Made by a program: the position numbers and the translations under genes. From Escherichia phage vB_EcoM_KAW3E185, in sequence record MK373782.1: a stretch of DNA of 64,000 bases, one strand, 5' to 3'. Shown here in pieces: positions 3,665 through 54,925 of the stretch. The notes below the pieces were generated by a model. It saw only the letters and a list, made by a program, of their open reading frames with translations, was not told where the DNA came from and made no database searches. How positions within the stretch are numbered: the stretch's first letter is position 1; every line of letters starts with the position of its first letter.

Positions 3665-5480
3665 AGGACATCCATTCTTTACGAAGTTCTGAATCATCAC
3701 CCATCAACATTTCAAAGAGTTCTTTCCAATTTTCAGGAAGTTTAACTACGTCGTACACAGGGTTCTGAATCATTTCACGATATTCTGACTTTTCAAGGGA
3801 GCCTAATCCCTTGATGTATCGAATACTATGCTTAGGCAGTGTATCTTTAACTTCTTCATACTCAGCTACAGTATAAAACCATTTTTGAGCTTTGCCAATT
3901 TGTGCAATAATTACAGGTGTTTTAACAAAGCGAATACGTCCTTGTTCAAACAATTCAGGCCAATTACTAAAGAAAGCAAGCAAAGCCGGATAGATACTTC
4001 CAAGACCGTCATGATCGGCATCAGTCATAATTGCAATATTACGATAGTTCGTATTCTCTGCCTTTTCACCAAGAATAAGACCCGTGATAGCACAGATATC
4101 AAAGAGCTCTTTGTTCTTCATCATATCAGCATATGACATACCCCAGCTATTCATCACCTTACCACGTAATGGGAATCCGCCGTGTAGTTCACGGTCACGA
4201 ACATCAATGAGATAACCAATTGCCGAATCACCTTCTGTTAAAAACAATGTCGTATCTGCATCTTTACCACATTGGTTAGCTTTAATATGCTTATGAACCT
4301 TAGCTTTAGTTGCCTTTTTAGCTGCTTTAGTTTCTGCAGCCTTTTCTGCTGCCAATTTACGAGCTAATGCTGCTTCAACAATAGGCATAATCAAGGCTTC
4401 GTTTTTAAGAAGTGCCTGAGCAATTTTCTTAGCATCTAATTGGATATGATTACGAATATCACCATACGTTGACGTTAAACGTTCTTTAGTCTGAGAATCA
4501 AAACGCATGTTGCTCATGTCTCTAATAAACATCAACATTGTGAGACATTCTTTAACACGAGCTTTAGTGACTTCAATACCCTTATATTTCTTTTTAATAC
4601 CAGGCAAAAGATGTTCACAGATATCATCCATTACACATTCAACATGATGACCACCATTTTTAGTATGGATGTTATTCACATAAGTTAAATGACGGAAGCC
4701 ATCTGGTGATGTTGTGAATGCTATAGAGACTTTATCATTTTCTTGAATGATGTTATCTTCGCCAAATTGTTTAGCAAATCGTTTAAAATTACCATCAACC
4801 TTTTTACCATTAAATGTGAACTTGATATCAGGATAAACGACTGCCAATGTTTGAAGTCTGTCTAAAGTAATATCTAAATAAATTTGAGATAAATTATGCT
4901 CTTCAAATGAAGAGAAATCAGGAGTGAAGATTACTTTAGTGCCTTTACATTTAGATTTCTTAGAAGACCATGATTTGTTTTCCATTCCGTTTGAACAGTT
5001 AACAGTGATTTCATTTTCGCCATCTGACGTGATGCCTGTAAACAACGTAGAGAAGATATTAGTTAAACTACTCCCGACGCCGTTCATACCACCAGTCTTG
5101 CGTTCAGAATCATCACCAAAGTTACCACCAGCCTTTGGAATAGTCCAGGCTGCTACAGGCCCAGGAATTTGTTCACCTGTTTGGTCGGTAACTAAACCTT
5201 GAGGAATACCACGTCCGTTATCTTCCACCGAAACTTGATTATTTTTAATTTGCACATCAATTTTATTTGCAAACTTAAATGATGTACGAATAGATTCATC
5301 AACCGAGTTGTCAATAATCTCATCGATTAATTTAACCAGACCAGGAACATATTCAACTTGTTGATATTTACCAAACAAAAAACGCTCATGTGCTTCTTTA
5401 GCAGAAGAACCAATATACATACCACTACGTTTCTTAATATGTTCTACATCTGACAATACCTTAATTTCATTTTTAATCAT
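3663..5480 (-). CDS. 39: DNA topoisomerase II large (ATPase) subunit, unsplit 605-aa form
   Basis: GHKL ATPase motifs (GLVKLIDEIIDNSVDE, GGMNGVGSS); length equals the fused gp39+gp60 form known from T2/T6-type phages. Confidence 0.9.
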   Translation of the reverse strand: MIKNEIKVLSDVEHIKKRSGMYIGSSAKEAHERFLFGKYQQVEYVPGLVKLIDEIIDNSVDESIRTSFKFANKIDVQIKNNQVSVEDNGRGIPQGLVTDQTGEQIPGPVAAWTIPKAGGNFGDDSERKTGGMNGVGSSLTNIFSTLFTGITSDGENEITVNCSNGMENKSWSSKKSKCKGTKVIFTPDFSSFEEHNLSQIYLDITLDRLQTLAVVYPDIKFTFNGKKVDGNFKRFAKQFGEDNIIQENDKVSIAFTTSPDGFRHLTYVNNIHTKNGGHHVECVMDDICEHLLPGIKKKYKGIEVTKARVKECLTMLMFIRDMSNMRFDSQTKERLTSTYGDIRNHIQLDAKKIAQALLKNEALIMPIVEAALARKLAAEKAAETKAAKKATKAKVHKHIKANQCGKDADTTLFLTEGDSAIGYLIDVRDRELHGGFPLRGKVMNSWGMSYADMMKNKELFDICAITGLILGEKAENTNYRNIAIMTDADHDGLGSIYPALLAFFSNWPELFEQGRIRFVKTPVIIAQIGKAQKWFYTVAEYEEVKDTLPKHSIRYIKGLGSLEKSEYREMIQNPVYDVVKLPENWKELFEMLMGDDSELRKEWMS

Positions 5481-5523
5481 GTTGTCTCCTCGTTATGAAG
5501 GTATTCTATCATCCGAAATCTAA

Positions 5524-5546
5524 AGCAAAAAGGGCCGAAGCCCTTA
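5524..5546 (-). terminator. hairpin gggc-UUCG-gccc followed by U5
   Basis: Stem-loop immediately after the stop of the 140-aa ORF, before gene 39 start; coordinates approximate. Confidence 0.5.
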
Positions 5547-5966
5547 TTTAAATTTAATTTTCTGAAGTGCATCAATTGCAGCCAAACGCCCTTGTTCACT
5601 TTTAACTGTAATGACCACATCACCTGATACGATCACCGAACCATCAACAAATTCTATAGAGCCTTTTTTGAAATCTACGGCTGTATCTGATTCAGGAACT
5701 TCTTCAAAGAATTTAAATTCTGCACCGTAAATTAGAATATCACCTTGCATACTAATGATTGTACGTCCAGGTCCATCGGTTTCAGCGGCAATCATTGAAA
5801 CACCATAACCAATCATCTCTTCTACAATAAAATCTCTTGATAATAAAACTGTATGCAGAGTAGTGTTAAGACGTTTACCAGTCGTATTAAGAATTCTCAA
5901 GAAATTATCTTCCTGTCCTTTAATAATACGATATTTCTTACCAACTTCAAAACCTTTAAAAGCCAT
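5544..5966 (-). CDS. hypothetical protein (140 aa)
   Basis: ORF on gene strand between gene 39 and the zinc-ribbon ORF; no recognisable motif. Confidence 0.5.
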   Translation of the reverse strand: MAFKGFEVGKKYRIIKGQEDNFLRILNTTGKRLNTTLHTVLLSRDFIVEEMIGYGVSMIAAETDGPGRTIISMQGDILIYGAEFKFFEEVPESDTAVDFKKGSIEFVDGSVIVSGDVVITVKSEQGRLAAIDALQKIKFK

Positions 5967-5968
5967 AA

Positions 5969-6148
5969 TTAACCCTTCTTAAGTAAGTCGTAAAAACCAC
6001 CGTTCACATGTTTAGGAGCAGAAACCCGACGAGTAGACAGACGATGACATTCAGGGCAAACATCGTTTTCTCGTTCAGAAATCCTTTTAATTTTTTCATA
6101 TTCATGGCCACAATCTTCAGATTGGCATTTATAGTCGTATAATGGCAT
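5969..6148 (-). CDS. FmdB-like zinc-ribbon protein (59 aa, CxxC...CxxC)
   Basis: Not in ORF track (under 60 aa); hand translation gives MPLYDYKCQSEDCGHEYEKIKRISERENDVCPECHRLSTRRVSAPKHVNGGFYDLLKKG; fills a 180-nt gap. Confidence 0.45.
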   Translation of the reverse strand: MPLYDYKCQSEDCGHEYEKIKRISERENDVCPECHRLSTRRVSAPKHVNGGFYDLLKKG

Positions 6149-6150
6149 TA

Positions 6151-6561
6151 TTATTCCTTAAAATGTGCTTTCAACATTTGATACAAAGACCATGCCTGGT
6201 CGTTATTTTTGATAGTAATCGTCATCACCGGAAATTCAGACAATTCGTCAAGTTCACCAGAATCTTGCTCTTCAGACTCTTGATATGGATTTCCAACTTC
6301 GTCAAAGAACTCTGCTTCATTCGTGGAGAGCCAGATAAAGTTTTCATCAAGGATATCACCGCCTGTTGCGTATCCAACCATGCCAGTAGATGTCACAATT
6401 TTAGTAGGACGCCCAAGATGGTCAACATCTAATACTTTAAATGGTTCCATGCCAAGACGTCGTGCGTAAATCCCATTATCAGTATGGTCTTTAATAAACT
6501 CTTCTTGGGCACGTTTATCTTTAAATTGGTACCATGAGTTAACGCGGAATTTATTAGCCAT
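6151..6561 (-). CDS. hypothetical protein (about 136 aa)
   Basis: Track ORF 6151-6579; start chosen at the ATG (MANKF...) that overlaps the upstream stop in a TAATG arrangement. Confidence 0.5.
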
Positions 6562-6788
6562 TAGTAAGTTTCCTTCCAATAAGTTGTACCGTTTTCAGTG
6601 ATTTCACGGAAGATACCATAGATAGGCATTTCATCACCGAGTTTTTCGTAAACGTAAACCACTTCAGTGTAGCATAAAAATTCAGTCCAGTTTTTCTGTA
6701 CAACAACTAAATCAGGATTAAACAGAACATCTTCAAACTCATCGATGTTTGAATCAGTAGTTACGTTTTTAATGATTTGACGTTTCAT
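6561..6788 (-). CDS. hypothetical protein (about 75 aa)
   Basis: Track ORF 6561-6833; start chosen at Met16 (MKRQ...), which has a GAGGAG Shine-Dalgarno. Confidence 0.45.
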
Positions 6789-6845
6789 AATATTCTCCTC
6801 TTGTTTTGATAGGTCTATAGTATCATAGACCATAGTTGTTGTACA

Positions 6846-7370
6846 TCATTTTAGCAAAATAAAATCAACTTGTTCTGCCAATGAACGTCTAAACATTAAT
6901 TGACAACTTCCGAGGATGAAATCAGGTGCTTCATAGACGGCGATGTAGTATCCTTTAGCTTTCAAGAGTTCAACATCCACCTGGTCATCAAACCATGCAT
7001 AAACCGCGTCAACACTTTCAAATCCAAAATAGAACCCTTGAGCCCAATCTTCACTCAATTCAAATGTGTGCTCAATTCTATAGTATCTTAAGATATTTTG
7101 TTCAAGGAGTTTGTCTTCATTTACTGTAGGACGATTAGGGACATTATAGTTGTCGCCATGATGGTAGAAGTTACCCGAGAGTATTCCATGCTTATCAAGG
7201 AACTCCCATGTTTCTTCAGAGTTGTCGGTGCCTGACCAACCGTATGGTGAGCGAGGTTCTTTATTCCAAGAGGTTTCCCAAATTCTGATGGCTTTACCGT
7301 CTTCGATAGCAATTCCTGGTAATGATTCACGTTGAGTACAAAAACTACGTTCTACGCGGTAAACTATCAT
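6846..7370 (-). CDS. hypothetical protein (174 aa)
   Basis: ORF with GGAG Shine-Dalgarno and upstream early promoter. Confidence 0.5.
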   Translation of the reverse strand: MIVYRVERSFCTQRESLPGIAIEDGKAIRIWETSWNKEPRSPYGWSGTDNSEETWEFLDKHGILSGNFYHHGDNYNVPNRPTVNEDKLLEQNILRYYRIEHTFELSEDWAQGFYFGFESVDAVYAWFDDQVDVELLKAKGYYIAVYEAPDFILGSCQLMFRRSLAEQVDFILLK

Positions 7371-7396
7371 ATTATTCTCCTCTGGTTGATATGGTT

Positions 7397-7425
7397 ATAA
7401 TATCAAAACCGGAGGAGAAGTAAAC
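7397..7425 (-). promoter_or_regulatory. sigma70-type early promoter (-35 GTTTAC, 17-nt spacer, -10 TATTAT)
   Basis: Consensus hexamers read on minus strand upstream of ORF 6846-7370; coordinates approximate. Confidence 0.45.
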
Positions 7426-7429
7426 AACT

Positions 7430-7849
7430 TTATGCAAAAGATGCTGGACAATATTTTTTGATTTGGAACTCAGGAACTACCATGAACTGACCAGCGAAAA
7501 CGATGTTATAAAGCTTAACACCATCTTCAACCCATTGGTCTGAAATAAAACCAGCGACTTGATTCGTTGTCCATGGAGACCCATCAGTTGCGGCAGCAAT
7601 AGTAAATTCATGGTCTTTTACAACTAAAACTGACCTGCACAGTTTCCATTTGAACGCTTTTTCTTCTGGTTCAATGAACTGGCTTGAGACGTAACCAATG
7701 TTACCATTAACATCTCGAACTTTAACTTCGTTACATCCAAAAACCGGATCACTCACAGAAAGAACTTCAACCAACTTCCCGGCAACTTTAGAGCGAGAAG
7801 CAACAGATACATATACGTAATCACCTGTAGAGAGATTTACAATATTCAT
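7430..7849 (-). CDS. hypothetical protein, paralog A of a three-member family (139 aa)
   Basis: Shares N-terminal (ASRSKxAGKLVEV) and C-terminal (GFISDQWVEDGxKLYNIVF) blocks with the next ORF. Confidence 0.55.
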   Translation of the reverse strand: MNIVNLSTGDYVYVSVASRSKVAGKLVEVLSVSDPVFGCNEVKVRDVNGNIGYVSSQFIEPEEKAFKWKLCRSVLVVKDHEFTIAAATDGSPWTTNQVAGFISDQWVEDGVKLYNIVFAGQFMVVPEFQIKKYCPASFA

Positions 7850-7858
7850 AATAATTCC

Positions 7859-8323
7859 TTAAGCTTTACGAGGAGACACATAGCGAGTGATTTCAGATTC
7901 TTTAACAACTCGGAAGTCACCTAAGAATACGATATTGTATAACTTTTCACCATCTTCAACCCATTGGTCGCTAATGAAGCCACACATAGTATCAGTTTTG
8001 CTTGGATAACCATATTCATCGATGAAGTCAAATTCTTTATCAGTCTGGAATTCAACACCTTTACACAAGGCCCATTTGAACTGTGTAGTAGGCTCAACGA
8101 TATCGCTTGAAGCAAAGTGGGCACTTACACGAGTTTCCAAGAATTTAGGACTTACATAGGCGAACTGAGTTTCAGTTTTTCCAGAACTAGGAATGATTCG
8201 AACTTTAACTTCTTTAATACGGCCCATGCCATTAGTACGAAGTCCTACTACTTCAACCAGCTTTCCTGCAGCTTTAGAACGAGACGCTGTCGATACACGC
8301 TTAATTTCACCAATAGTAATCAT
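7859..8323 (-). CDS. hypothetical protein, paralog B (154 aa)
   Basis: See paralog A; same conserved blocks. Confidence 0.55.
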   Translation of the reverse strand: MITIGEIKRVSTASRSKAAGKLVEVVGLRTNGMGRIKEVKVRIIPSSGKTETQFAYVSPKFLETRVSAHFASSDIVEPTTQFKWALCKGVEFQTDKEFDFIDEYGYPSKTDTMCGFISDQWVEDGEKLYNIVFLGDFRVVKESEITRYVSPRKA

Positions 8324-8351
8324 AATTTCTCTCTTTGTTTAAGTTGAATTC

Positions 8352-8381
8352 ATTATACTCCATCCATCCTTGGATGTACAA
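8352..8381 (-). promoter_or_regulatory. early promoter (-10 TATAAT; -35 TTGTAC-like) with ccaaggatgg-type spacer
   Basis: Near-copy of the promoter cassette at 8910, 52881 and 53901; coordinates approximate. Confidence 0.4.
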
Positions 8382-8383
8382 CA

Positions 8384-8878
8384 TTAATTAAGGATATTAA
8401 CCACAGCACTACGCGGAACTACACTAAAATCACCTGCATGAACTACGTTCAGAAGTTCAACACCGTCTTCAATCCACTGATCAGTTGCCCATCCATTTAC
8501 TGGACCAGCGAATGGGCGTCGAATTGAAACATATTTACACAACAAATCAGTAGGCTCAATAGGCTTAATCAGAGTACCGTACATACAAGCGATATCCATA
8601 TCAATACAGATGTCTTTAACGGGTTCTACTTCTTCAATCAACAATTCAAAGTCAGTGCTTGGAAGGGCGGTAGTAGAAATTGTACCGTGTGAATTTTTAA
8701 TTTCTAAGAATAACCAAGGGCCTTCAGCTTGTTTGATGAAGTTAACAATAGTGAAACTATTACCTTGAGTGGCACCTAAAATTTCACAAAACTTTTCATA
8801 AGCTCGCACTGAAGCACCGTACCAGTTGATTTGTTTTTCGTCTTTCAGGATGTAAGTAGCCGTAGTATTGATATTCAT
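8384..8878 (-). CDS. hypothetical protein, paralog C (164 aa; shares only the C-terminal module)
   Basis: C-terminus WATDQWIEDGVELLNVVHAGDFSVVP aligns with the paralog A/B C-termini. Confidence 0.5.
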   Translation of the reverse strand: MNINTTATYILKDEKQINWYGASVRAYEKFCEILGATQGNSFTIVNFIKQAEGPWLFLEIKNSHGTISTTALPSTDFELLIEEVEPVKDICIDMDIACMYGTLIKPIEPTDLLCKYVSIRRPFAGPVNGWATDQWIEDGVELLNVVHAGDFSVVPRSAVVNILN

Positions 8879-8909
8879 AATGTTTTTCCTGTTTGGTTAA
8901 GATAGAAAG

Positions 8910-8939
8910 ATTATACTCCAACCATCCTTGGTTGTAAAC
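8910..8939 (-). promoter_or_regulatory. early promoter (-35 GTTTAC, 18 nt, -10 TATAAT), cassette family A
   Basis: Minus strand reads GTTTACaaccaaggatggttggagTATAAT; coordinates approximate. Confidence 0.5.
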
Positions 8940-8944
8940 AGGTT

Positions 8945-9622
8945 TTATCGCTGTTTTACACTTAACGGGTCAGGATTCTCAGGGACATCTTCAAGGCCAA
9001 GCGCATAACGCTGAGCATATTTTAACATCAAAATATCTTTAGCACAATCATGAATACTATCATGGGCAACGAATCCTTTTAGCGTACCCATCGGTAATGG
9101 ACACATACTTAATCCTCGTGTCAACGAGTAAGCTTCGATTGCCGTACGAATATCGCGTTGAGCCCAGAATTTAACCGGTTCTAATTTATCAGTATCAATA
9201 TCTGGTTCAAGAACACCTTCATCACGATAGAGGTCACGAATCAAATCGACCAAGATCGGGAAGTCAAAGCTCATACCACGGCACCACATCTGTGATTTCC
9301 ATTGGTCAACTTTATTAGCTCGGCAATAGTCTAAAAAGATTTTAATGCCTTCAAGCGTAGTGACATCGTCTTCAGACGGAGCCAGGTTTTTACGCGCTTC
9401 TGCTGACTGTTCTTTCCACCATTTCATAGTGGATTTAGCGAAAACTCGCTTCCCTTTCTGAGAAGCTAAATTAAATTTAATTCGCTTACCTCGTTGAACA
9501 AGTTCTTCAAATGATTCAACAACTTCAGGGTCGGAATTATATGCAATAACCGCAAGGTCAATAACAGCCGCTTTTGATGTATTGCCGAATGTTTCAAAAT
9601 CTATAATAACATCAGTGCTCAT
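8945..9622 (-). CDS. dexA: exonuclease A (DnaQ-like 3'-5' exonuclease), 225 aa
   Basis: N-terminal IIDFETFG DEDD exonuclease motif; position next to dda as in T4. Confidence 0.75.
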   Translation of the reverse strand: MSTDVIIDFETFGNTSKAAVIDLAVIAYNSDPEVVESFEELVQRGKRIKFNLASQKGKRVFAKSTMKWWKEQSAEARKNLAPSEDDVTTLEGIKIFLDYCRANKVDQWKSQMWCRGMSFDFPILVDLIRDLYRDEGVLEPDIDTDKLEPVKFWAQRDIRTAIEAYSLTRGLSMCPLPMGTLKGFVAHDSIHDCAKDILMLKYAQRYALGLEDVPENPDPLSVKQR

Positions 9623-9631
9623 AATTTTCTC

Positions 9632-10945
9632 TCAAATAAAATGGACGTCAAAACGACCACGAGTTGTGCCGACATACAATAACTGTTTAGCTAATTCTGA
9701 ATCGGCATAATGGATACACGGTGTATAAACAAAGGCTGTGTCAACAGACATACCCTGGGCCTTATGGAAGGTTGATACAGGTAGTGCCTTCACCTTAGTG
9801 AACATACGTTTAGCATCCCAGAATTCGCTCCATGGAGCTTTACCGCCTTTATTCCAGAATTTGTATGTTTCTGCGGTCTTAGCCAAAAACAAATTGAATT
9901 TATAAAGCTCTTCTTCAGAAGAAATAACCTTTATATCTTCGCGGATGTATTCTTCATCATCCCCATATGTTTCTACTGTAAGATTCCAGTATCGTATCAT
10001 ATATTCGCCTGAAACACCACGTGCTTTAACGAATGTAGACGTTTCTACAGCATCTCGAATACGAACGAATTGCCCGTTATTGAAAAGCATTTCGGTCATA
10101 TTTTTGCCATCTAGTTTATATGTCTTAGTAAATGGCTCTTGTAGAACAATGACTTCGTCTTTAATAAATGGTTTTTCTGTTTCAAGAAGTTTTCGGCGAA
10201 TAATTGAATTCAACTTGTCCACCGACTTATTTGTGAATGCCATCATTCGATTTTCGAAAAGGTCTTCAGGAGTTTTAACGACATTAAAATAGTTCGTCAT
10301 ATACGATTTAAGGTCTGTATATCCGTGAACACCGTGTCCATCAACTACTTTATCGTAAATCCATTTGCCATTACGAATATCAGTCGCAACATCAATAATT
10401 GGTGCATTGCTACGTTTAACTTCTGTAAGGTTGCATTGCACGAAGTCTTTGTGAGTGAAGAAAGGACTTAGATACGCAGTTGATTCGCCTGGGTCTACCG
10501 GACGAATCTGGCATCGGTCGCCGATGCCAATTACTGTACACCATTTAGGGATACTAGCTAACATTATTTTAAACAGAGAACGGTCGCACATTGACGCTTC
10601 ATCAAATAACAGTACACGACACAAGGCTAAGTCGGGAACCTTTTTCTGTTCAAACAATACGTTTTCTTCGTATGTAGTTGGGTTGATTTTAAGAATGCTA
10701 TGAATAGTCGATGCTTCTTGGCCCGCAAGTTTGCTTAGAACCTTTTTAGCAGCATGTGTAGGGGCTGCTAAAATAATACCTGATTCTCCAGAAGAAATAA
10801 GGGCTTCAACGATGAATCTAGTAAGGGTTGTTTTACCTGTACCAGCGGGCCCGTTAATAGTTACGTGATGTTTCTTTTCTTTAATAGCGTTCATAACAAC
10901 GTTGAAGGCGTTTTTCTGGCCTTCAGTCAAATCATCAAATGTCAT
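9632..10945 (-). CDS. dda: Dda DNA helicase (SF1), 437 aa
   Basis: Walker A GPAGTGKTT; N-terminus MTFDDLTEGQKNAF matches T4 Dda as I recall it. Confidence 0.9.
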   Translation of the reverse strand: MTFDDLTEGQKNAFNVVMNAIKEKKHHVTINGPAGTGKTTLTRFIVEALISSGESGIILAAPTHAAKKVLSKLAGQEASTIHSILKINPTTYEENVLFEQKKVPDLALCRVLLFDEASMCDRSLFKIMLASIPKWCTVIGIGDRCQIRPVDPGESTAYLSPFFTHKDFVQCNLTEVKRSNAPIIDVATDIRNGKWIYDKVVDGHGVHGYTDLKSYMTNYFNVVKTPEDLFENRMMAFTNKSVDKLNSIIRRKLLETEKPFIKDEVIVLQEPFTKTYKLDGKNMTEMLFNNGQFVRIRDAVETSTFVKARGVSGEYMIRYWNLTVETYGDDEEYIREDIKVISSEEELYKFNLFLAKTAETYKFWNKGGKAPWSEFWDAKRMFTKVKALPVSTFHKAQGMSVDTAFVYTPCIHYADSELAKQLLYVGTTRGRFDVHFI

Positions 10946-10969
10946 CGTAAAGTCCCTGCAATTGGAATA

Positions 10970-11308
10970 CTAACAATACGGCCTGTGTCTAGGATTCGTT
11001 GATACAATCTTTGCGTCTCCGCATCTAGCAATACGGCCTGTGTCTAGGATTCGTTGATACAATCTTTGCGTCTCCGCATCTAGTTTAATGTGTTTCATTT
11101 CAAGCTTATTAAACCAGAACTTACGCGGAGTTTCGACCATTCTTAGAACTCCCATTTTTAAATCTGTTTTATACTGTGTTTTCAAAGTATCGAAAACTTT
11201 ATCTGCAATATCCTTTCTAAAAAATACTGCAGGACGATGCTCATCAAGTGGAACCGGGACAGTAAATCCTTCCATATCTCGATAAACTATTGCATATACA
11301 TAAACCAT
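10970..11308 (-). CDS. hypothetical protein (112 aa) with C-terminus altered by a 55-bp tandem duplication
   Basis: ORF upstream of dda; the last 20 codons are read from the second repeat copy in a shifted frame. Confidence 0.45.
   Translation of the reverse strand: MVYVYAIVYRDMEGFTVPVPLDEHRPAVFFRKDIADKVFDTLKTQYKTDLKMGVLRMVETPRKFWFNKLEMKHIKLDAETQRLYQRILDTGRIARCGDAKIVSTNPRHRPYC
10974..11083. repeat. perfect direct tandem repeat, 2 x 55 bp
   Basis: caatacggcctgtgtctaggattcgttgatacaatctttgcgtctccgcatctag occurs twice back to back. Confidence 0.9.
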
Positions 11309-11310
11309 AA

Positions 11311-12057
11311 TTAACCTTTAATCAGTTGGAATAATGATGCGCTAAGTGGTAAGCCACGTTTCAATTTTAATTTACCAATGAAACCAATCTTTTCAAAACG
11401 TTGCAGACCTTGGATAACTTTATCATATGTATCGAAAAGCGATTCAGCGTCAGTTAATTTAGTTTTAGTTTTCCAGTCAGAGCCTTTAAGAAGAACGTTG
11501 AGTTTAGTAAGTTCATGGCCTTCTGCTTGATGTGAGCCATTAATGCGTGCTTTCAAAGCAACAATTCTAAGTTTAGATTCGTTAGATAAAGGTTGATTTT
11601 TCATCATGTTCGCCATATGCTTAACACGATTTTCACGTTTTGCTCGGATTTTTAAAATAGTACCATAAACCTTTTTAATTTGGGCCCATTTCTTCTCGTC
11701 GAGATTAAGTTTCTCTACTTTACAGACAGAAGGATTAGCGATACGTCTTGCAATGGCATCACGTTTCTCAATAAGTTCTTCTAATGTTAAATCAGAACGA
11801 GCCGTGTTATATTTTTTCTTAACTGGGATAACATTACCTTTAATGTAGCCTATATCATTATTAAAACGTTCTAAGGATAATTTCTCACATTCAACAGAGT
11901 TATTAAAAGATTCACCTGAGTAAGCGCAGACCTTTTGATCAAGAATGTTTTTAAGGTAATTAAAGTCTAAGTTAAAATCCTTAGAGCGTCTCTTCGCAGA
12001 AGCTCTGGTGTGGTCAAGACGACGATTGATTTTGTTAATTTTATTATTTGATAACAT
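11311..12057 (-). CDS. hypothetical basic protein (248 aa) at the srd position
   Basis: ORF between the dda-upstream gene and modA; assignment positional only. Confidence 0.45.
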   Translation of the reverse strand: MLSNNKINKINRRLDHTRASAKRRSKDFNLDFNYLKNILDQKVCAYSGESFNNSVECEKLSLERFNNDIGYIKGNVIPVKKKYNTARSDLTLEELIEKRDAIARRIANPSVCKVEKLNLDEKKWAQIKKVYGTILKIRAKRENRVKHMANMMKNQPLSNESKLRIVALKARINGSHQAEGHELTKLNVLLKGSDWKTKTKLTDAESLFDTYDKVIQGLQRFEKIGFIGKLKLKRGLPLSASLFQLIKG

Positions 12058-51597: not shown

Positions 51598-51902
51598 TAT
51601 AATGTTCTCTCAAATTTGTGGAAGCATTTACGGCATTTCAATTTCAAGTTATCAGTGGTCCAGTTAACCAGTTGGACTTGGATAGTTCCACATTCCGGGC
51701 ATGGATGTTTTGCTGCCGATTTGGCAGCATTTTCACGTCGTTCAACCATTTTCATTATTTCGTTCCATGCCGGAGGAACGAACTCTTCTTCACCGTGGAT
51801 TTTATCTCGCTGAACAAATTCAATCTTTGAACTATCGTCAATAAACTTAACCAAGCGGTGATTAGTGCTCATATCAATATCCTCTAAAAGGCGTAGTTTC
51901 AT
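51597..51902 (-). CDS. zinc-ribbon protein (101 aa)
   Basis: CPECG...CRKC motif pair. Confidence 0.45.
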   Translation of the reverse strand: MKLRLLEDIDMSTNHRLVKFIDDSSKIEFVQRDKIHGEEEFVPPAWNEIMKMVERRENAAKSAAKHPCPECGTIQVQLVNWTTDNLKLKCRKCFHKFERTL

Positions 51903-52852
51903 TATAACACCTCAATGGCATTTCGTAAACCATCCGCTTTCGCATTCAGAGCTTTTAACGATTTAGTTTGTTCTGCAATCTGGGCTTCGACTTCTTTCAG
52001 ACGAGATTTGAGATATTCGCGTTCTTCTCTTAAGTTATCAACTTTTTCTGCTTTAGGCTCTTTAATAGACTTAGGCTTATACTCGTTAGGGTTCTTCAAC
52101 TTAATTTGAATGCGAGAACTGTATAACATTGAACCATTATCTTCGGTTTCATCATACATTTCTACCACGTCCATGATTCTTAACATCATGCGAAGTTTAT
52201 AAGACAGCGAACGAATGGTTTTATTGTGCTTCTTAATTTCTTCAACTTTCATGGTGCCGAGATTACGTGAGTAATAATAAGGAACCTGAATATCAATTGA
52301 TAATGATGCGGTACCATTACCGGTTGGTTTGAACACTGCAGTAACCCAATCTTTAGCATGAACTGTATTTGTACGATCATCGCCGCCTGTGAATAATTTA
52401 CGAGAATGTTTAAAAAGCATATTCACTTGGTTATTGAATTCACAAGCAAATTTATCAGCAAATTTAGTTTCAGGAATGGTAGTTAACCAATCAGCCAAAT
52501 GAGTCTTTTTAACATCATTAACAATAGTGAATTCAACCAAATCGGTTTTAGATGTCACAGATTTAATAAAGCTCGGCTTCATAAAGTTTTTAATGTTATC
52601 GCGAGCTACAGTAGAAGATAATAAACGAGAACGTTTGAACCATTGAAGCAGTGTCCCTAATGAATGAGAATATGCATTTTGAGTATCTTTACAGATATGA
52701 TTTTCTTGGCCTATGTATGTACCAAAATCTCGAAGAATACCACTTACTACATCTCGGTGTGGAACATCAAATCCTAGTACACCAGAAGCACGTTGGGCAT
52801 GAACGTTAGCGATAAGACCTGCAAAGTATTCAATGTAATGTGAACGTGTCAT
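51902..52852 (-). CDS. hypothetical protein with C-terminal coiled coil (316 aa)
   Basis: Heptad-like C-terminus; own early promoter. Confidence 0.5.
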   Translation of the reverse strand: MTRSHYIEYFAGLIANVHAQRASGVLGFDVPHRDVVSGILRDFGTYIGQENHICKDTQNAYSHSLGTLLQWFKRSRLLSSTVARDNIKNFMKPSFIKSVTSKTDLVEFTIVNDVKKTHLADWLTTIPETKFADKFACEFNNQVNMLFKHSRKLFTGGDDRTNTVHAKDWVTAVFKPTGNGTASLSIDIQVPYYYSRNLGTMKVEEIKKHNKTIRSLSYKLRMMLRIMDVVEMYDETEDNGSMLYSSRIQIKLKNPNEYKPKSIKEPKAEKVDNLREEREYLKSRLKEVEAQIAEQTKSLKALNAKADGLRNAIEVL

Positions 52853-52880
52853 AATATTTTCCTCTCGTTAAGATAAATTC

Positions 52881-52910
52881 ATTATACTCCAACCATCCTT
52901 GGTTGTAAAC
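52881..52910 (-). promoter_or_regulatory. early promoter (-35 GTTTAC, 18 nt, -10 TATAAT), cassette family A
   Basis: Same 30-bp cassette as at 8910-8939; coordinates approximate. Confidence 0.5.
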
Positions 52911-52914
52911 TGAT

Positions 52915-53874
52915 TTATGATTTTAACGCATTCATTGCGTTAAAAAGTTTAGAATACTGCAACTGGAGATTCGTTACAACACTTTGAGCATCACGAAGCT
53001 TAGCTTGTGCTTTGTCAAGTTCAACAGACAGTTGGTCCATAGTGGCCTTGATTTGATTGTAATGGTAATCTTCGGCCGGAAGAAGGTCATTAGAAACATT
53101 TAGTTTTACTGCAGACAGTTTGCACACATTTGGCAAACCTTTAAACATTGATTTACCCGAAGTAGAATAAGCACTTAGGACTTCGGCCTGTTCAATTGGG
53201 GTCCCAGTAAGCGATGCTTCAAACAATGCATTTTCCTTTTTAAGATTTTGATAGTATTCAGAGTCTTTGTGCCACCATGGCGCAGGAACCTTTTTACCAA
53301 TAGATACACGAGCCTGGATAGCGATATTGCCCTTATTCTTGATAGGGTCGATAATATTAAGCTCACGAGAATAAATTGCTTTAATCTGGTGAATATTATC
53401 ACCTAACACTTCCAACGCTTGGTGGAATACACGAGCAACGTTATCATTCTTAGGTTTATACGTAAGAGTGAACTCGTTCTCACTGATAACCATGATTTCC
53501 AACTTATCGTAAGTATATTTCAAATGTTTCATGTTAATTGCTTGAGGACGAATACGAGAAGCAATGGCCATCAGATTGTTAAGGTTATTCCGGAACTGCT
53601 TAGCGAAATATTGTCCTTCACCGCCAATACAAAAATTACGAAGTTTCTGTTTGGCCAATAAACGGCTGAACTCGCCATTTTTAATGAACTCTTTAACGGG
53701 TGTGTTAGTAACGCATTCAAATTGAGTAAACTTACGAGAATTAATCCCATAATACGAACAGATTTCCTCAATCTCTTCAGGAGTCTTTACAGGCATACGG
53801 ATAGGATTAGGTCCTGGAGTATATGCGTTCGAGGTAAATTCTTTGATAAGTTCTCTACGTGTAATAAAAGCCAT
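52915..53874 (-). CDS. hypothetical protein with C-terminal coiled coil (319 aa)
   Basis: Heptad-like C-terminus; own early promoter. Confidence 0.5.
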   Translation of the reverse strand: MAFITRRELIKEFTSNAYTPGPNPIRMPVKTPEEIEEICSYYGINSRKFTQFECVTNTPVKEFIKNGEFSRLLAKQKLRNFCIGGEGQYFAKQFRNNLNNLMAIASRIRPQAINMKHLKYTYDKLEIMVISENEFTLTYKPKNDNVARVFHQALEVLGDNIHQIKAIYSRELNIIDPIKNKGNIAIQARVSIGKKVPAPWWHKDSEYYQNLKKENALFEASLTGTPIEQAEVLSAYSTSGKSMFKGLPNVCKLSAVKLNVSNDLLPAEDYHYNQIKATMDQLSVELDKAQAKLRDAQSVVTNLQLQYSKLFNAMNALKS

Positions 53875-53900
53875 TTTATATTCCTCATGTTGAAAAATTT

Positions 53901-53930
53901 ATTATACTCCAACCATCCTTGGTTGTACAT
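53901..53930 (-). promoter_or_regulatory. early promoter (-10 TATAAT; -35 GTACA-like), cassette family A
   Basis: Near-copy of the 8910/52881 cassette; coordinates approximate. Confidence 0.45.
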
Positions 53931-54925
53931 CATTCCTTAAGAAGTTTTACTACTTGAATAAGATTAGCTCGTTCTGTTTTATTTTTACCGTTTAAGCCTG
54001 CTAATCGTGAGATTTCATCGTCAGTCTGTTGAATAGTTACATTAAGTTCGTTAATCAAAGCTTCAAAGTATTTGATTTGCTCAGCATGTTTTGATTCAAA
54101 TTTCTGAACCGGAATAACGTCTTGGTTCAGTTCATCAATAAGGTCTTTAAGAGCATCTTCTTGGTTGATATCATATTCAACTTCTTTTATTTCTTCAACG
54201 AGCTCGTCTTTATATCTAACGTCTTTTAGTCCTGGAGCTGGTCCTGAAATCTCTTCTTTAAGAGTACAAACATACCCAATACGGTATCCAACGCCGTCTC
54301 GCTTGATATCAACTTCGTCGATAAATCCACAATGTTTAAGTCCAGAGCCGATTATGTCAAAATATCCTTGACGTCGTCCTTCAAACGTTACACGAACTAC
54401 TAAGACGGTTTTGCCACCGACCTTTTGAAGCTCACATTTATAAAAGTTTGTTGAACCTGAATAACATGGATGAGTTTTAAAGTTCATCTGACGATCTAGG
54501 CCCATTTGTAAACGTGCTGTTACGGCCATAAAACGTGTTTGGTTCTCGTTAAGATGAGCAACAATCCATTTCAAAGGCATTTTACCCTGTTCACGGCCGA
54601 ACAAATCAGTACGTCCTAGATTACGCAGGATGTTGTTAGAGTTAATCATCGACAGAACGTTAAGTTTATTCAGCGCGCTGAAGATTCCATCAGCCATTGA
54701 TTTTCCATAACCTTTACACGCTTTAATAAGTGCTCGCGGCAGATTAGTATAGATTTCAGACGGCATATGAAAATCAAATTTACTAACCAGTAATTGATGA
54801 ACTTGGATAGCAATTTGTTCATAATTAAGTGCTCTGCGATCGTTATGGTCTTTAAACCACACTTTAATCTGTGAAGCACATAAACCGTTAATTTCATGTT
54901 TTACCGCATCAGATGTAATGCTCAT
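53930..54925 (-). CDS. hypothetical protein with C-terminal coiled coil (331 aa)
   Basis: Heptad-like C-terminus. Confidence 0.5.
   Translation of the reverse strand: MSITSDAVKHEINGLCASQIKVWFKDHNDRRALNYEQIAIQVHQLLVSKFDFHMPSEIYTNLPRALIKACKGYGKSMADGIFSALNKLNVLSMINSNNILRNLGRTDLFGREQGKMPLKWIVAHLNENQTRFMAVTARLQMGLDRQMNFKTHPCYSGSTNFYKCELQKVGGKTVLVVRVTFEGRRQGYFDIIGSGLKHCGFIDEVDIKRDGVGYRIGYVCTLKEEISGPAPGLKDVRYKDELVEEIKEVEYDINQEDALKDLIDELNQDVIPVQKFESKHAEQIKYFEALINELNVTIQQTDDEISRLAGLNGKNKTERANLIQVVKLLKE

What the first reader, a model, noticed from the sequence alone, without database searches (positions are those of the whole stretch)
7430..8878. Three tandem paralogs sharing a C-terminal module, each with its own promoter
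ORFs at 7430-7849, 7859-8323 and 8384-8878 all end with a conserved block of about 35 aa (xxDQW[VI]EDGxxLxN[IV]V..G.F.VV). The first two also share an N-terminal ASRSKxAGKLVEV block; the third has an unrelated N-terminal domain. At least two have a dedicated early promoter. A diversifying family with a constant module and variable partner domain is the pattern often seen for host-takeover or anti-defence effectors.
Basis: seen in the sequence. Interest (0 to 1): 0.55.

Follow-up and report, generated by a model that had tools for sequence, protein, structure and literature searches.

The report
Known T4 motB/motB.1 gene cluster
The three neighbouring genes are this phage's versions of the known T4 early genes motB (two copies) and motB.1, whose shared tail and differing heads have been published, so the finding is real but ordinary; checking it showed that the T4 and RB69 reference genomes carry a broken motB.1.

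The parts
7859..8323 (-). w154, the MotB orthologue (154 aa): basic KOW/SH3-like N-terminal domain, disordered linker, and the shared C-terminal barrel
   Evidence: Pfam PF17613 9e-40 covering profile positions 2-157 of 162; phrog_1671 1e-65; 48% identity to T4 MotB; annotated motB in RB69 and moha; AF2 pLDDT 84
7430..7849 (-). w139, a second MotB copy seen in Mosigvirus-type records (139 aa); its N-terminal domain has lost the basic charge
   Evidence: PF17613 4e-22; phrog_1671 4e-51; 43% identity to w154 and 38% to T4 MotB; RB69p010 'similar to T4 MotB'; N-terminal domain pI 4.9 against 10.4 in w154
8384..8878 (-). w164, full-length MotB.1 (164 aa): acidic N-terminal barrel with a helix, linker carrying a short DMDIACMY..KP motif, and the shared C-terminal barrel
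   Evidence: phrog_2333 8e-81; PF17613 6e-8 on residues 84-159 only; 36% identity to T4 MotB.1 over 134 aa; AF2 pLDDT 79.5
8387..8566 (-). shared C-terminal module of w164 (aa 105-164)
   Evidence: alignment A6; invariant D-Q-W-x-E-D-G, L, N, V, G, F, VV
7862..8086 (-). shared C-terminal module of w154 (aa 80-154)
   Evidence: AF2 pLDDT above 90 across this domain
7433..7657 (-). shared C-terminal module of w139 (aa 65-139)
8135..8323 (-). KOW-like N-terminal domain of w154 (aa 1-63), net charge +7
   Evidence: the published KOW assignment for T4 MotB residues 6-45
7664..7849 (-). KOW-like N-terminal domain of w139 (aa 1-62), net charge -2
8627..8878 (-). MotB.1-type N-terminal domain of w164 (aa 1-84)
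   Evidence: strands plus helix 26-37; homologous to the T4 MotB.1 N-terminal domain that Kim et al. 2025 call LSm-like
8910..8938 (-). early-type promoter of w164 (TTTACA-17-TATAAT), with a 6-bp hairpin in the spacer
8352..8380 (-). early-type promoter of w154, probably also serving w139 (TGTACA-17-TATAAT); same cassette with a compensatory change in the spacer hairpin
8561..8602 (-). short linear motif DMDIACMYGTLIKP in the low-confidence linker of w164
   Evidence: the same motif sits at other positions in other family members

Best explanation
The three ORFs are the Mosigvirus (RB69-type) versions of the T4 early genes motB (w154), a second motB copy (w139) and full-length motB.1 (w164). 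All belong to Pfam family PF17613. Each is a small protein made of two beta-barrels: a variable N-terminal barrel joined by a flexible linker to a constant C-terminal barrel of about 55-75 aa carrying the invariant DQWxEDG...N.V..G.F.VV motif. Expression (inferred from sequence): sigma-70 early promoters sit in front of motB.1 and motB, and w139 is read from the motB transcript. Function (shown for T4 MotB in the literature, inferred here by orthology for w154): an abundant early protein that binds DNA without sequence specificity, alters H-NS/StpA-DNA complexes and modestly raises burst size. My added inference concerns the division of labour. The basic KOW-like N-terminal domain of canonical MotB is the likelier non-specific DNA binder. 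The shared C-terminal module is acidic and Tudor-like (an SH3-type barrel), so it is more likely a common interaction or oligomerisation module than an OB-fold DNA binder. On that view w139 (N-terminal domain no longer basic) and w164 (acidic throughout) use the same module with different N-terminal activities. Identity and family membership are near certain. The division of labour between the domains is an inference, which I put at about 0.4.
Confidence: 0.75

Rival explanations
1. All three proteins are non-specific DNA-binding, nucleoid-associated-type proteins, and the shared C-terminal module is the DNA-binding domain (an OB-fold), as the published HHpred analysis allowed.
Confidence: 0.2
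2. The cluster is a set of anti-defence or counter-silencing effectors, with the variable N-terminal domains tracking different host targets.
For: The genes are early, lie in a non-essential plastic region, evolve faster than their neighbours, show modular domain swapping and vary in copy number. MotB alters H-NS-dependent repression. Knock-outs show little or no phenotype on laboratory strains: the T4 motB amber mutant has a 2-fold lower burst and T4 motB.1 mutants show no detectable change, as is typical of accessory genes.
Against: There is no direct evidence. dN/dS of 0.15-0.23 shows purifying and not arms-race selection. The raised dS suggests recombinational allele exchange instead. [quoted passage not shown]
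Confidence: 0.12
3. MotB.1 (w164) acts on RNA through its LSm-like N-terminal domain and is functionally unrelated to MotB, the shared module being only a structural scaffold.
For: The T4 MotB.1 N-terminal domain is predicted to have an LSm-like fold related to GoF and Frd.2. w164 is acidic and so unlike a non-specific DNA binder. A goF-like neighbour (5544-5966) weakly hits the N-terminal part of the phrog_2333 profile (E = 0.004).
Against: T4 MotB.1 had no effect in the RNA reporter assay, although that protein was probably the truncated 119-aa form. An acidic protein is also a poor general RNA binder. BLASTP detects no similarity between w164 and the goF homologue.
Confidence: 0.15
4. The similarity among the three ORFs is chance or a composition artefact, and the ORFs are not real genes.
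For: None found.
Against: z = 15-45 against shuffles. Hundreds of homologues are annotated in phage genomes. Purifying selection acts on them. The AF2 models are confident.
Confidence: 0.01

Closest known systems
T4 MotB (gene motB, Pfam PF17613; Patterson-West et al. 2018 and 2021)
   Same: w154 is the positional and sequence orthologue: 48% identity, the same two-domain layout, a basic N-terminal domain, an early promoter, and a position between cef and dexA. w139 is a second copy of the same architecture.
   Different: The Mosigvirus lineage carries two copies. The w139 N-terminal domain has lost its basic charge (5 K+R against 12 in w154). The w154 C-terminal module is acidic (-4), whereas that of T4 MotB is about neutral (+1). 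Gene order differs from T4, with the motB.2 homologue on the cef side.
T4 MotB.1 (gene motB.1, phrog_2333; Kim et al. 2025, 'LSm-like fold' family with GoF and Frd.2)
   Same: w164 aligns with T4 MotB.1 over the whole N-terminal domain and the start of the C-terminal module (36% identity) and lies upstream of motB.
   Different: w164 is full length at 164 aa. The T4 reference product (119 aa, 13.8 kDa) is cut off inside the shared module by a 1-nt insertion peculiar to the reference record. w164 also has a linker insert of about 20 aa with the DMDIACMY..KP motif, which T4-type MotB.1 lacks.
RB69 motB cluster (RB69p010-p013)
   Same: Same genes in the same order, at 87-92% protein identity. This arrangement (two motB, one motB.1) is explicitly listed in the 2021 paper.
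   Different: The RB69 reference splits motB.1 into 132 aa plus a 29-aa ORF because of two single-T insertions. The window's gene is intact.
Tudor / chromo / PWWP / KOW small beta-barrels (SH3-like fold)
   Different: Sequence identity is only 9-20%. No aromatic-cage function is implied. This is a fold resemblance only, from predicted models.
PeSL promoter-terminator cassettes of T4-like phages (Arbiol et al. 2010; Comeau et al. 2014)
   Same: A near-identical early-promoter cassette with a stem-loop is repeated in front of accessory genes in plastic regions. Its promoter matches the reported TTTACW-N17-TAYWAT type.
   Different: Here the 6-bp hairpin lies inside the promoter spacer. Terminator activity and a role in shuffling were not tested.

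Membership tests
MotB family (Pfam PF17613) | Profile match above Pfam's gathering score (25 bits) | tested here: met
   79.2, 136.6 and 33.1 bits for w139, w154 and w164
MotB proper (T4 MotB, phrog_1671) | Full-length two-domain match: KOW-like N-terminal domain with the SRSKxAGK block plus the C-terminal domain | tested here: met
   w154 matches profile positions 2-157 of 162. w139 and w154 both match phrog_1671 end to end. w164 does not: only its C-terminal part matches.
MotB proper (T4 MotB) | Position between cef and dexA in the early region, transcribed on the same strand | tested here: met
   The order within the cluster differs from T4.
MotB proper (T4 MotB) | Tight non-specific DNA binding, toxicity in E. 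coli, co-purification with H-NS and StpA | not testable with these tools
   Known only for T4 MotB. The charge profile is compatible for w154 (pI 8.5, N-terminal domain +7), but not obviously for w139 (pI 5.4) or w164 (pI 4.6).
MotB.1 (T4 motB.1, phrog_2333) | MotB.1-type N-terminal domain followed by the MotB-type C-terminal core | tested here: met
   w164: phrog_2333 8e-81 over residues 1-164; 36% identity to T4 MotB.1 over 134 aa; 45-50% identity at 98-99% coverage to the 143-167-aa Tequatrovirus-type forms
LSm-like fold family (GoF / MotB.1 / Frd.2; Kim et al. 2025) | N-terminal bent five-stranded antiparallel sheet similar to GoF and Frd.2 | tested here: inconclusive
OB-fold (published HHpred proposal for the shared C-terminal domain) | Five-stranded barrel with a helix between strands 3 and 4, and structural neighbours that are OB-fold proteins | tested here: not met
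PeSL cassettes | Conserved early promoter combined with a stem-loop, repeated in plastic regions | tested here: inconclusive
   Four copies of the 22-nt block against 0 expected. The hairpin folds at -6.9 and -7.3 kcal/mol, z -2.9 and -2.3. It lies inside the promoter spacer. Terminator function is untested.
Anti-defence effector | Demonstrated or homology-supported inhibition of a defence system | not tested
   The tools include no anti-defence library, and the papers read contain no evidence for it.

The most novel reading that the evidence does not exclude
The constant acidic, Tudor-like C-terminal barrel may not be a DNA-binding OB-fold. It could instead be a shared docking or oligomerisation module, for example for H-NS/StpA or for hetero-oligomers among the MotB paralogues, that delivers different N-terminal activities to one target. 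On this reading the function of MotB.1 has been missed so far, because the T4 reference frameshift led the published tests to use a protein lacking most of this module.
Probability: 0.3. Interest if true: 0.5.

Novelty: already known. Interest (0 to 1): 0.2.

Why it matters
As a discovery it matters little, because the family, its shared C-terminal domain and the RB69-type gene set are already published. Two by-products are useful to T4 biologists. First, the T4 reference records (NC_000866.4 and AF158101.6, and with them UniProt P39415) carry a 1-nt insertion that truncates MotB.1 from 143 to 119 aa inside the conserved module. The eleven other T4 records listed, phage T4T and more than 100 related phages lack it. 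The only functional study of MotB.1 had its expression plasmids made by gene synthesis, gives T4 coordinates from NC_000866.4 and reports a 13.8-kDa product, so its negative results may not apply to the real protein. The published '29-aa peptide' category in RB69 is the same kind of artefact. Second, the charge and fold analysis suggests which domain of MotB to test for DNA binding and which for partner binding.

Tried and rejected
- w174 (6846-7370, MotB.2 homologue) as a fourth family member: rejected, since z is 0.3-1.6 against shuffles and it has no Pfam hit.
- Further copies of the module or of the linker motif elsewhere in the window: none found.
- Positive (diversifying) selection: rejected, dN/dS 0.15-0.23.
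- Known RNA families in 5000-11500: only a sub-threshold Y_RNA hit (28 bits against a gathering score of 38) inside the w164 coding sequence, taken as chance.
- Solved structures by sequence: none found, using single sequences and profiles.
- Sequence link between w164 and the window's goF homologue: BLASTP finds nothing.
- Programmed frameshifting as the explanation of the T4 motB.1 break: rejected, because the extra G is absent from all other T4 records.
- Reading Son et al. 2021 (NAR, MotB compaction of DNA): not held in the library, so it is cited only by its title in a reference list.
- First clustering of N-terminal domains by BLAST: it merged everything because the cut left shared sequence, so I inspected an alignment instead.

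Full report
**What is there**

The window is the left end of a T4-type genome of the genus Mosigvirus. The stretch 5400-11000 is 98% identical to Escherichia phage vB_EcoM_MM02 and 97-98% identical to APCEc01, moha and mar005P1. Phage moha is classified as Mosigvirus mar005p1. All genes in this stretch lie on the minus strand. In ascending coordinates they are:

| Coordinates | Gene |
|---|---|
| 5544-5966 and 6151-6579 | two goF-like genes |
| 5969-6148 | zinc-ribbon gene |
| 6561-6833 | cef |
| 6846-7370 | w174, homologue of T4 motB.2 |
| 7430-7849 | w139 |
| 7859-8323 | w154 |
| 8384-8878 | w164 |
| 8945-9622 | dexA |
| 9632-10945 | dda |

**Checking the observation**

- Against 2000 shuffles, local alignment scores give z = 44 (w139-w154), 15 (w139-w164) and 16 (w154-w164). 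No shuffle reached the observed score. The last 40 residues alone give z = 19-28.
- The N-terminal parts of w139 and w154 are related (z = 15). The N-terminus of w164 is unrelated by sequence to either (z about 0).
- A six-frame scan and tblastn find exactly three copies of the module in the 64-kb window.
- The two best promoter matches in the region are TTTACA-17-TATAAT at 8938-8910, upstream of w164, and TGTACA-17-TATAAT at 8380-8352, upstream of w154.
- w139 starts 9 bp after the w154 stop codon, with a Shine-Dalgarno-like AAGGA overlapping that stop, and no promoter-like site precedes it. So 'at least two promoters' is right, and 'each with its own promoter' is not.

**What the genes are**

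- All three proteins pass the gathering score of Pfam PF17613 (motB).
- w154 matches the profile end to end and is 48% identical to T4 MotB.
- w139 has the same architecture. It is 43% identical to w154 and 38% to T4 MotB.
- w164 matches PF17613 only over its C-terminal part. It matches phrog_2333 end to end and is 36% identical to T4 MotB.1 over 134 residues.
- T4 has motB, motB.1 and motB.2 between cef and dexA. RB69 has the same four genes as the window, in the same order.

This has been published. Patterson-West et al. 2021 (PMC7827196) sorted 102 phage homologues into four groups: MotB proper, two groups that keep the C-terminal domain but have other N-terminal domains (one containing T4 MotB.1), and a single 29-aa RB69 peptide. 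They stated that MotB and MotB.1 share a conserved C-terminal domain with different N-terminal domains, and that RB69 has two motB copies, one motB.1 and that 29-aa peptide. Kim et al. 2025 (PMC12152347) described the MotB.1 N-terminal domain as an LSm-like barrel related to GoF and Frd.2.

**How wide and how modular the family is**

A profile of the three C-terminal modules, run against 1.84 billion representative proteins, found only 29 clusters. Three long repeat proteins give weak, short matches. The rest are small proteins (43-251 aa) with the module at or near the C-terminus. The word-indexed searches found 188 and 120 clusters at 90% identity. All listed hits carry PF17613, and nearly all that have a source name come from T4-like phages of enterobacteria.

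Architectures vary:

- a KOW-type N-terminus (MotB);
- a MotB.1-type N-terminus (143-169 aa);
- a 177-183-aa class;
- a 241-252-aa class with an extra or duplicated N-terminal domain;
- chimeras with a MotB-type N-terminus and a MotB.1-type C-terminal core (P0055, P0059, P0245).

A short motif, D[MF]D[IV]xx[MT]Y...KP, lies in the linker of w164. In other members it sits at the N-terminus or elsewhere in the linker. The 'constant module, variable partner' description is therefore accurate.

**Rate of evolution**

- Against RB69, the three genes are 87-92% identical at protein level, where the flanking genes are 96-100%.
- Against T4, the motB-cluster proteins are 38-49% identical, where the flanking genes are 68-79%.
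- dN/dS between the window and RB69 is 0.20 (w139), 0.15 (w154) and 0.23 (first 129 codons of w164). For dexA and dda it is about 0.02.
- This is looser purifying selection, not positive selection.
- dS is also raised for w139 and w154 (0.36-0.38, against 0.07-0.16 for the flanking dexA, dda and motB.2). That pattern is better explained by allele exchange with a more distant lineage.

**Structure**

The AlphaFold2 models are confident. The w154 model has mean pLDDT 84, with beta domains at residues 1-62 and 80-154 and a disordered linker at 66-79. The w164 model has mean pLDDT 79.5, with an N-terminal domain at 1-83 containing one helix and a C-terminal barrel at 116-161.

**Charge**

| Protein | N-terminal domain | Shared module | Whole protein |
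|---|---|---|---|
| w154 | pI 10.4, net +7 | pI 4.7, net -4 | pI 8.5 |
| w139 | pI 4.9, net -2 | pI 6.9, net 0 | pI 5.4 |
| w164 | pI 4.8, net -4 | pI 4.7, net -3 | pI 4.6, net -9 |

Over 251 family members, the conserved core averages -2.2 to -3.3, the first 60 residues of canonical MotB average +4.7, and the w139-like class averages -0.4.

**Most likely mechanism**

The following is shown for T4 MotB:

- it binds modified and unmodified DNA without sequence specificity;
- it co-purifies with H-NS and StpA;
- it doubles burst size;
- it changes the H-NS footprint on DNA;
- when overexpressed, it raises expression of 75 host genes, about a third of them H-NS-regulated.

It is also cited as compacting the nucleoid. 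I could not read that primary paper.

By orthology, I infer that w154 does the same. From charge and fold, I infer that the basic N-terminal domain carries the non-specific DNA binding, and that the constant acidic barrel is a shared interaction or oligomerisation module. On that view w139 and w164 couple the same module to non-basic N-terminal domains and so probably do something other than coat DNA. This last step is inference only.

**Side finding 1: the T4 reference motB.1 is frameshifted**

- In NC_000866.4 the gene ends ...TDQWIGRWR*. The next frame reads EDGVELLNVVHAGEYSVVPRSAVVAILN*, which is the missing module.
- T4 has ATTGGAAGATGG where the intact allele has ATTGAAGATGG.
- A 46-nt query that can seed only on the frameshifted allele hits just AF158101.6 and NC_000866.4.
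- The intact allele hits 119 records. Among those listed are eleven other T4 records and T4T. T4T annotates a 143-aa MotB.1.
- UniProt P39415 is also the 119-aa form.
- Neither paper that mentions motB.1 notes a frameshift or truncation.
- The 2025 study had its motB.1 expression plasmids made by gene synthesis, gives T4 coordinates from NC_000866.4 and reports a 13.8-kDa product. The protein it tested therefore probably lacked most of the shared module. This is my inference.

**Side finding 2: the RB69 reference shows the same kind of defect**

Two single-T insertions relative to the window split motB.1 into 132 aa plus the '29-aa peptide'. The split allele is found only in AY303349.1 and NC_004928.1, while 99 records have the intact allele.

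**Side finding 3: the promoter cassette**

- The 22-nt block CCAAGGATGG[T/A]TGGAGTATAAT occurs four times in the window where 0 are expected. The copies lie upstream of w164, of w154, and of the ORFs at 51902-52852 and 52915-53874.
- The spacer forms a 6-bp hairpin. It reads CAACCA/TGGTTG in three copies and CATCCA/TGGATG upstream of w154, which is one compensatory double change. Folding energies are -6.9 and -7.3 kcal/mol.
- This recalls the PeSL promoter-terminator cassettes reported to mediate gene shuffling in T4-like phages. I did not test function.
- Because the cassette is phage-wide, the similar promoters of w154 and w164 are not evidence that gene and promoter were duplicated together.

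**Verdict**

Novelty: already known. Interest is low. The reference-sequence errors and the fold and charge refinement are the only additions.

Noticed in passing
L002 2760-2800 (NC_000866.4 about 7291-7320); corresponds to window 8462-8482: T4 reference motB.1 has one extra G (ATTGGAAGATGG) that truncates the protein at 119 aa inside the conserved module. The next frame encodes the missing 28 residues. The allele occurs only in AF158101.6 and NC_000866.4, while the eleven other T4 records listed, T4T and more than 100 related phages are intact. UniProt P39415 and the published MotB.1 experiments appear to use the truncated form.
   Followed up: yes
L003 2977-3473 (NC_004928.1 8376-8872); corresponds to window 8384-8878: The RB69 reference has two single-T insertions relative to the window. 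They split motB.1 into a 132-aa ORF and the 29-aa ORF that the 2021 paper lists as a separate 'Category 3 peptide'. The split allele is found only in the RB69 reference records, and 99 other records are intact.
   Followed up: yes
window 8352-8380, 8910-8938, 52881-52909, 53901-53929 (minus strand): A near-identical early-promoter cassette (TTTACAACCAAGGATGGTTGGAGTATAAT) occurs four times. Its spacer forms a 6-bp hairpin, and the copy upstream of w154 keeps the hairpin through a compensatory double change. It resembles published PeSL cassettes, but the hairpin lies inside the promoter.
   Followed up: partly
window 51902-54925 (minus strand): Three adjacent ORFs of similar size (316, 319 and 331 aa; phrog_1435, phrog_2351 and phrog_2257, all of unknown function), possibly another tandem paralogue set; I did not compare them with each other. 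The first two are preceded by the same promoter cassette as motB and motB.1.
   Followed up: partly
window 8561-8602 (w164 residues 93-106); P0036, P0043, P0055, P0248, P0251, P0259: A short motif D[MF]D[IV]xx[MT]Y...KP lies in the disordered linker of w164. In other family members it appears at the N-terminus or elsewhere in the linker, and T4-type MotB.1 lacks it. It looks like a portable short linear motif of unknown partner.
   Followed up: partly
P0055, P0059, P0245, P0092, P0258 (database proteins): Natural domain shuffling within the family. There are chimeras with a MotB-type N-terminus and a MotB.1-type C-terminal core, a protein with a duplicated MotB.1-type N-terminal domain, and a 43-aa fusion of the MotB.2 start to the MotB.1 end that looks like a deletion product.
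   Followed up: partly
window 6846-7370 compared with L002 3162-3662: Gene order differs from T4. The motB.2 homologue (w174, 34% identity in BLAST) lies next to cef in this phage and in RB69, but next to dexA in T4. It has its own weaker promoter-like site at 7424-7397.
   Followed up: partly
window 7430-8323 compared with L003: Synonymous divergence from RB69 is two to five times higher in w139 and w154 (dS 0.36-0.38) than in the flanking dexA, dda and motB.2 (0.07-0.16). This suggests that this segment was exchanged by recombination with a more distant relative.
   Followed up: partly
window 5544-5966 and 6151-6579: Two goF-like paralogues (both phrog_622) flank a zinc-ribbon gene. The first also gives a weak hit (E = 0.004) to the N-terminal part of the MotB.1 profile phrog_2333, in line with the published GoF/MotB.1 fold relationship.
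   Followed up: no
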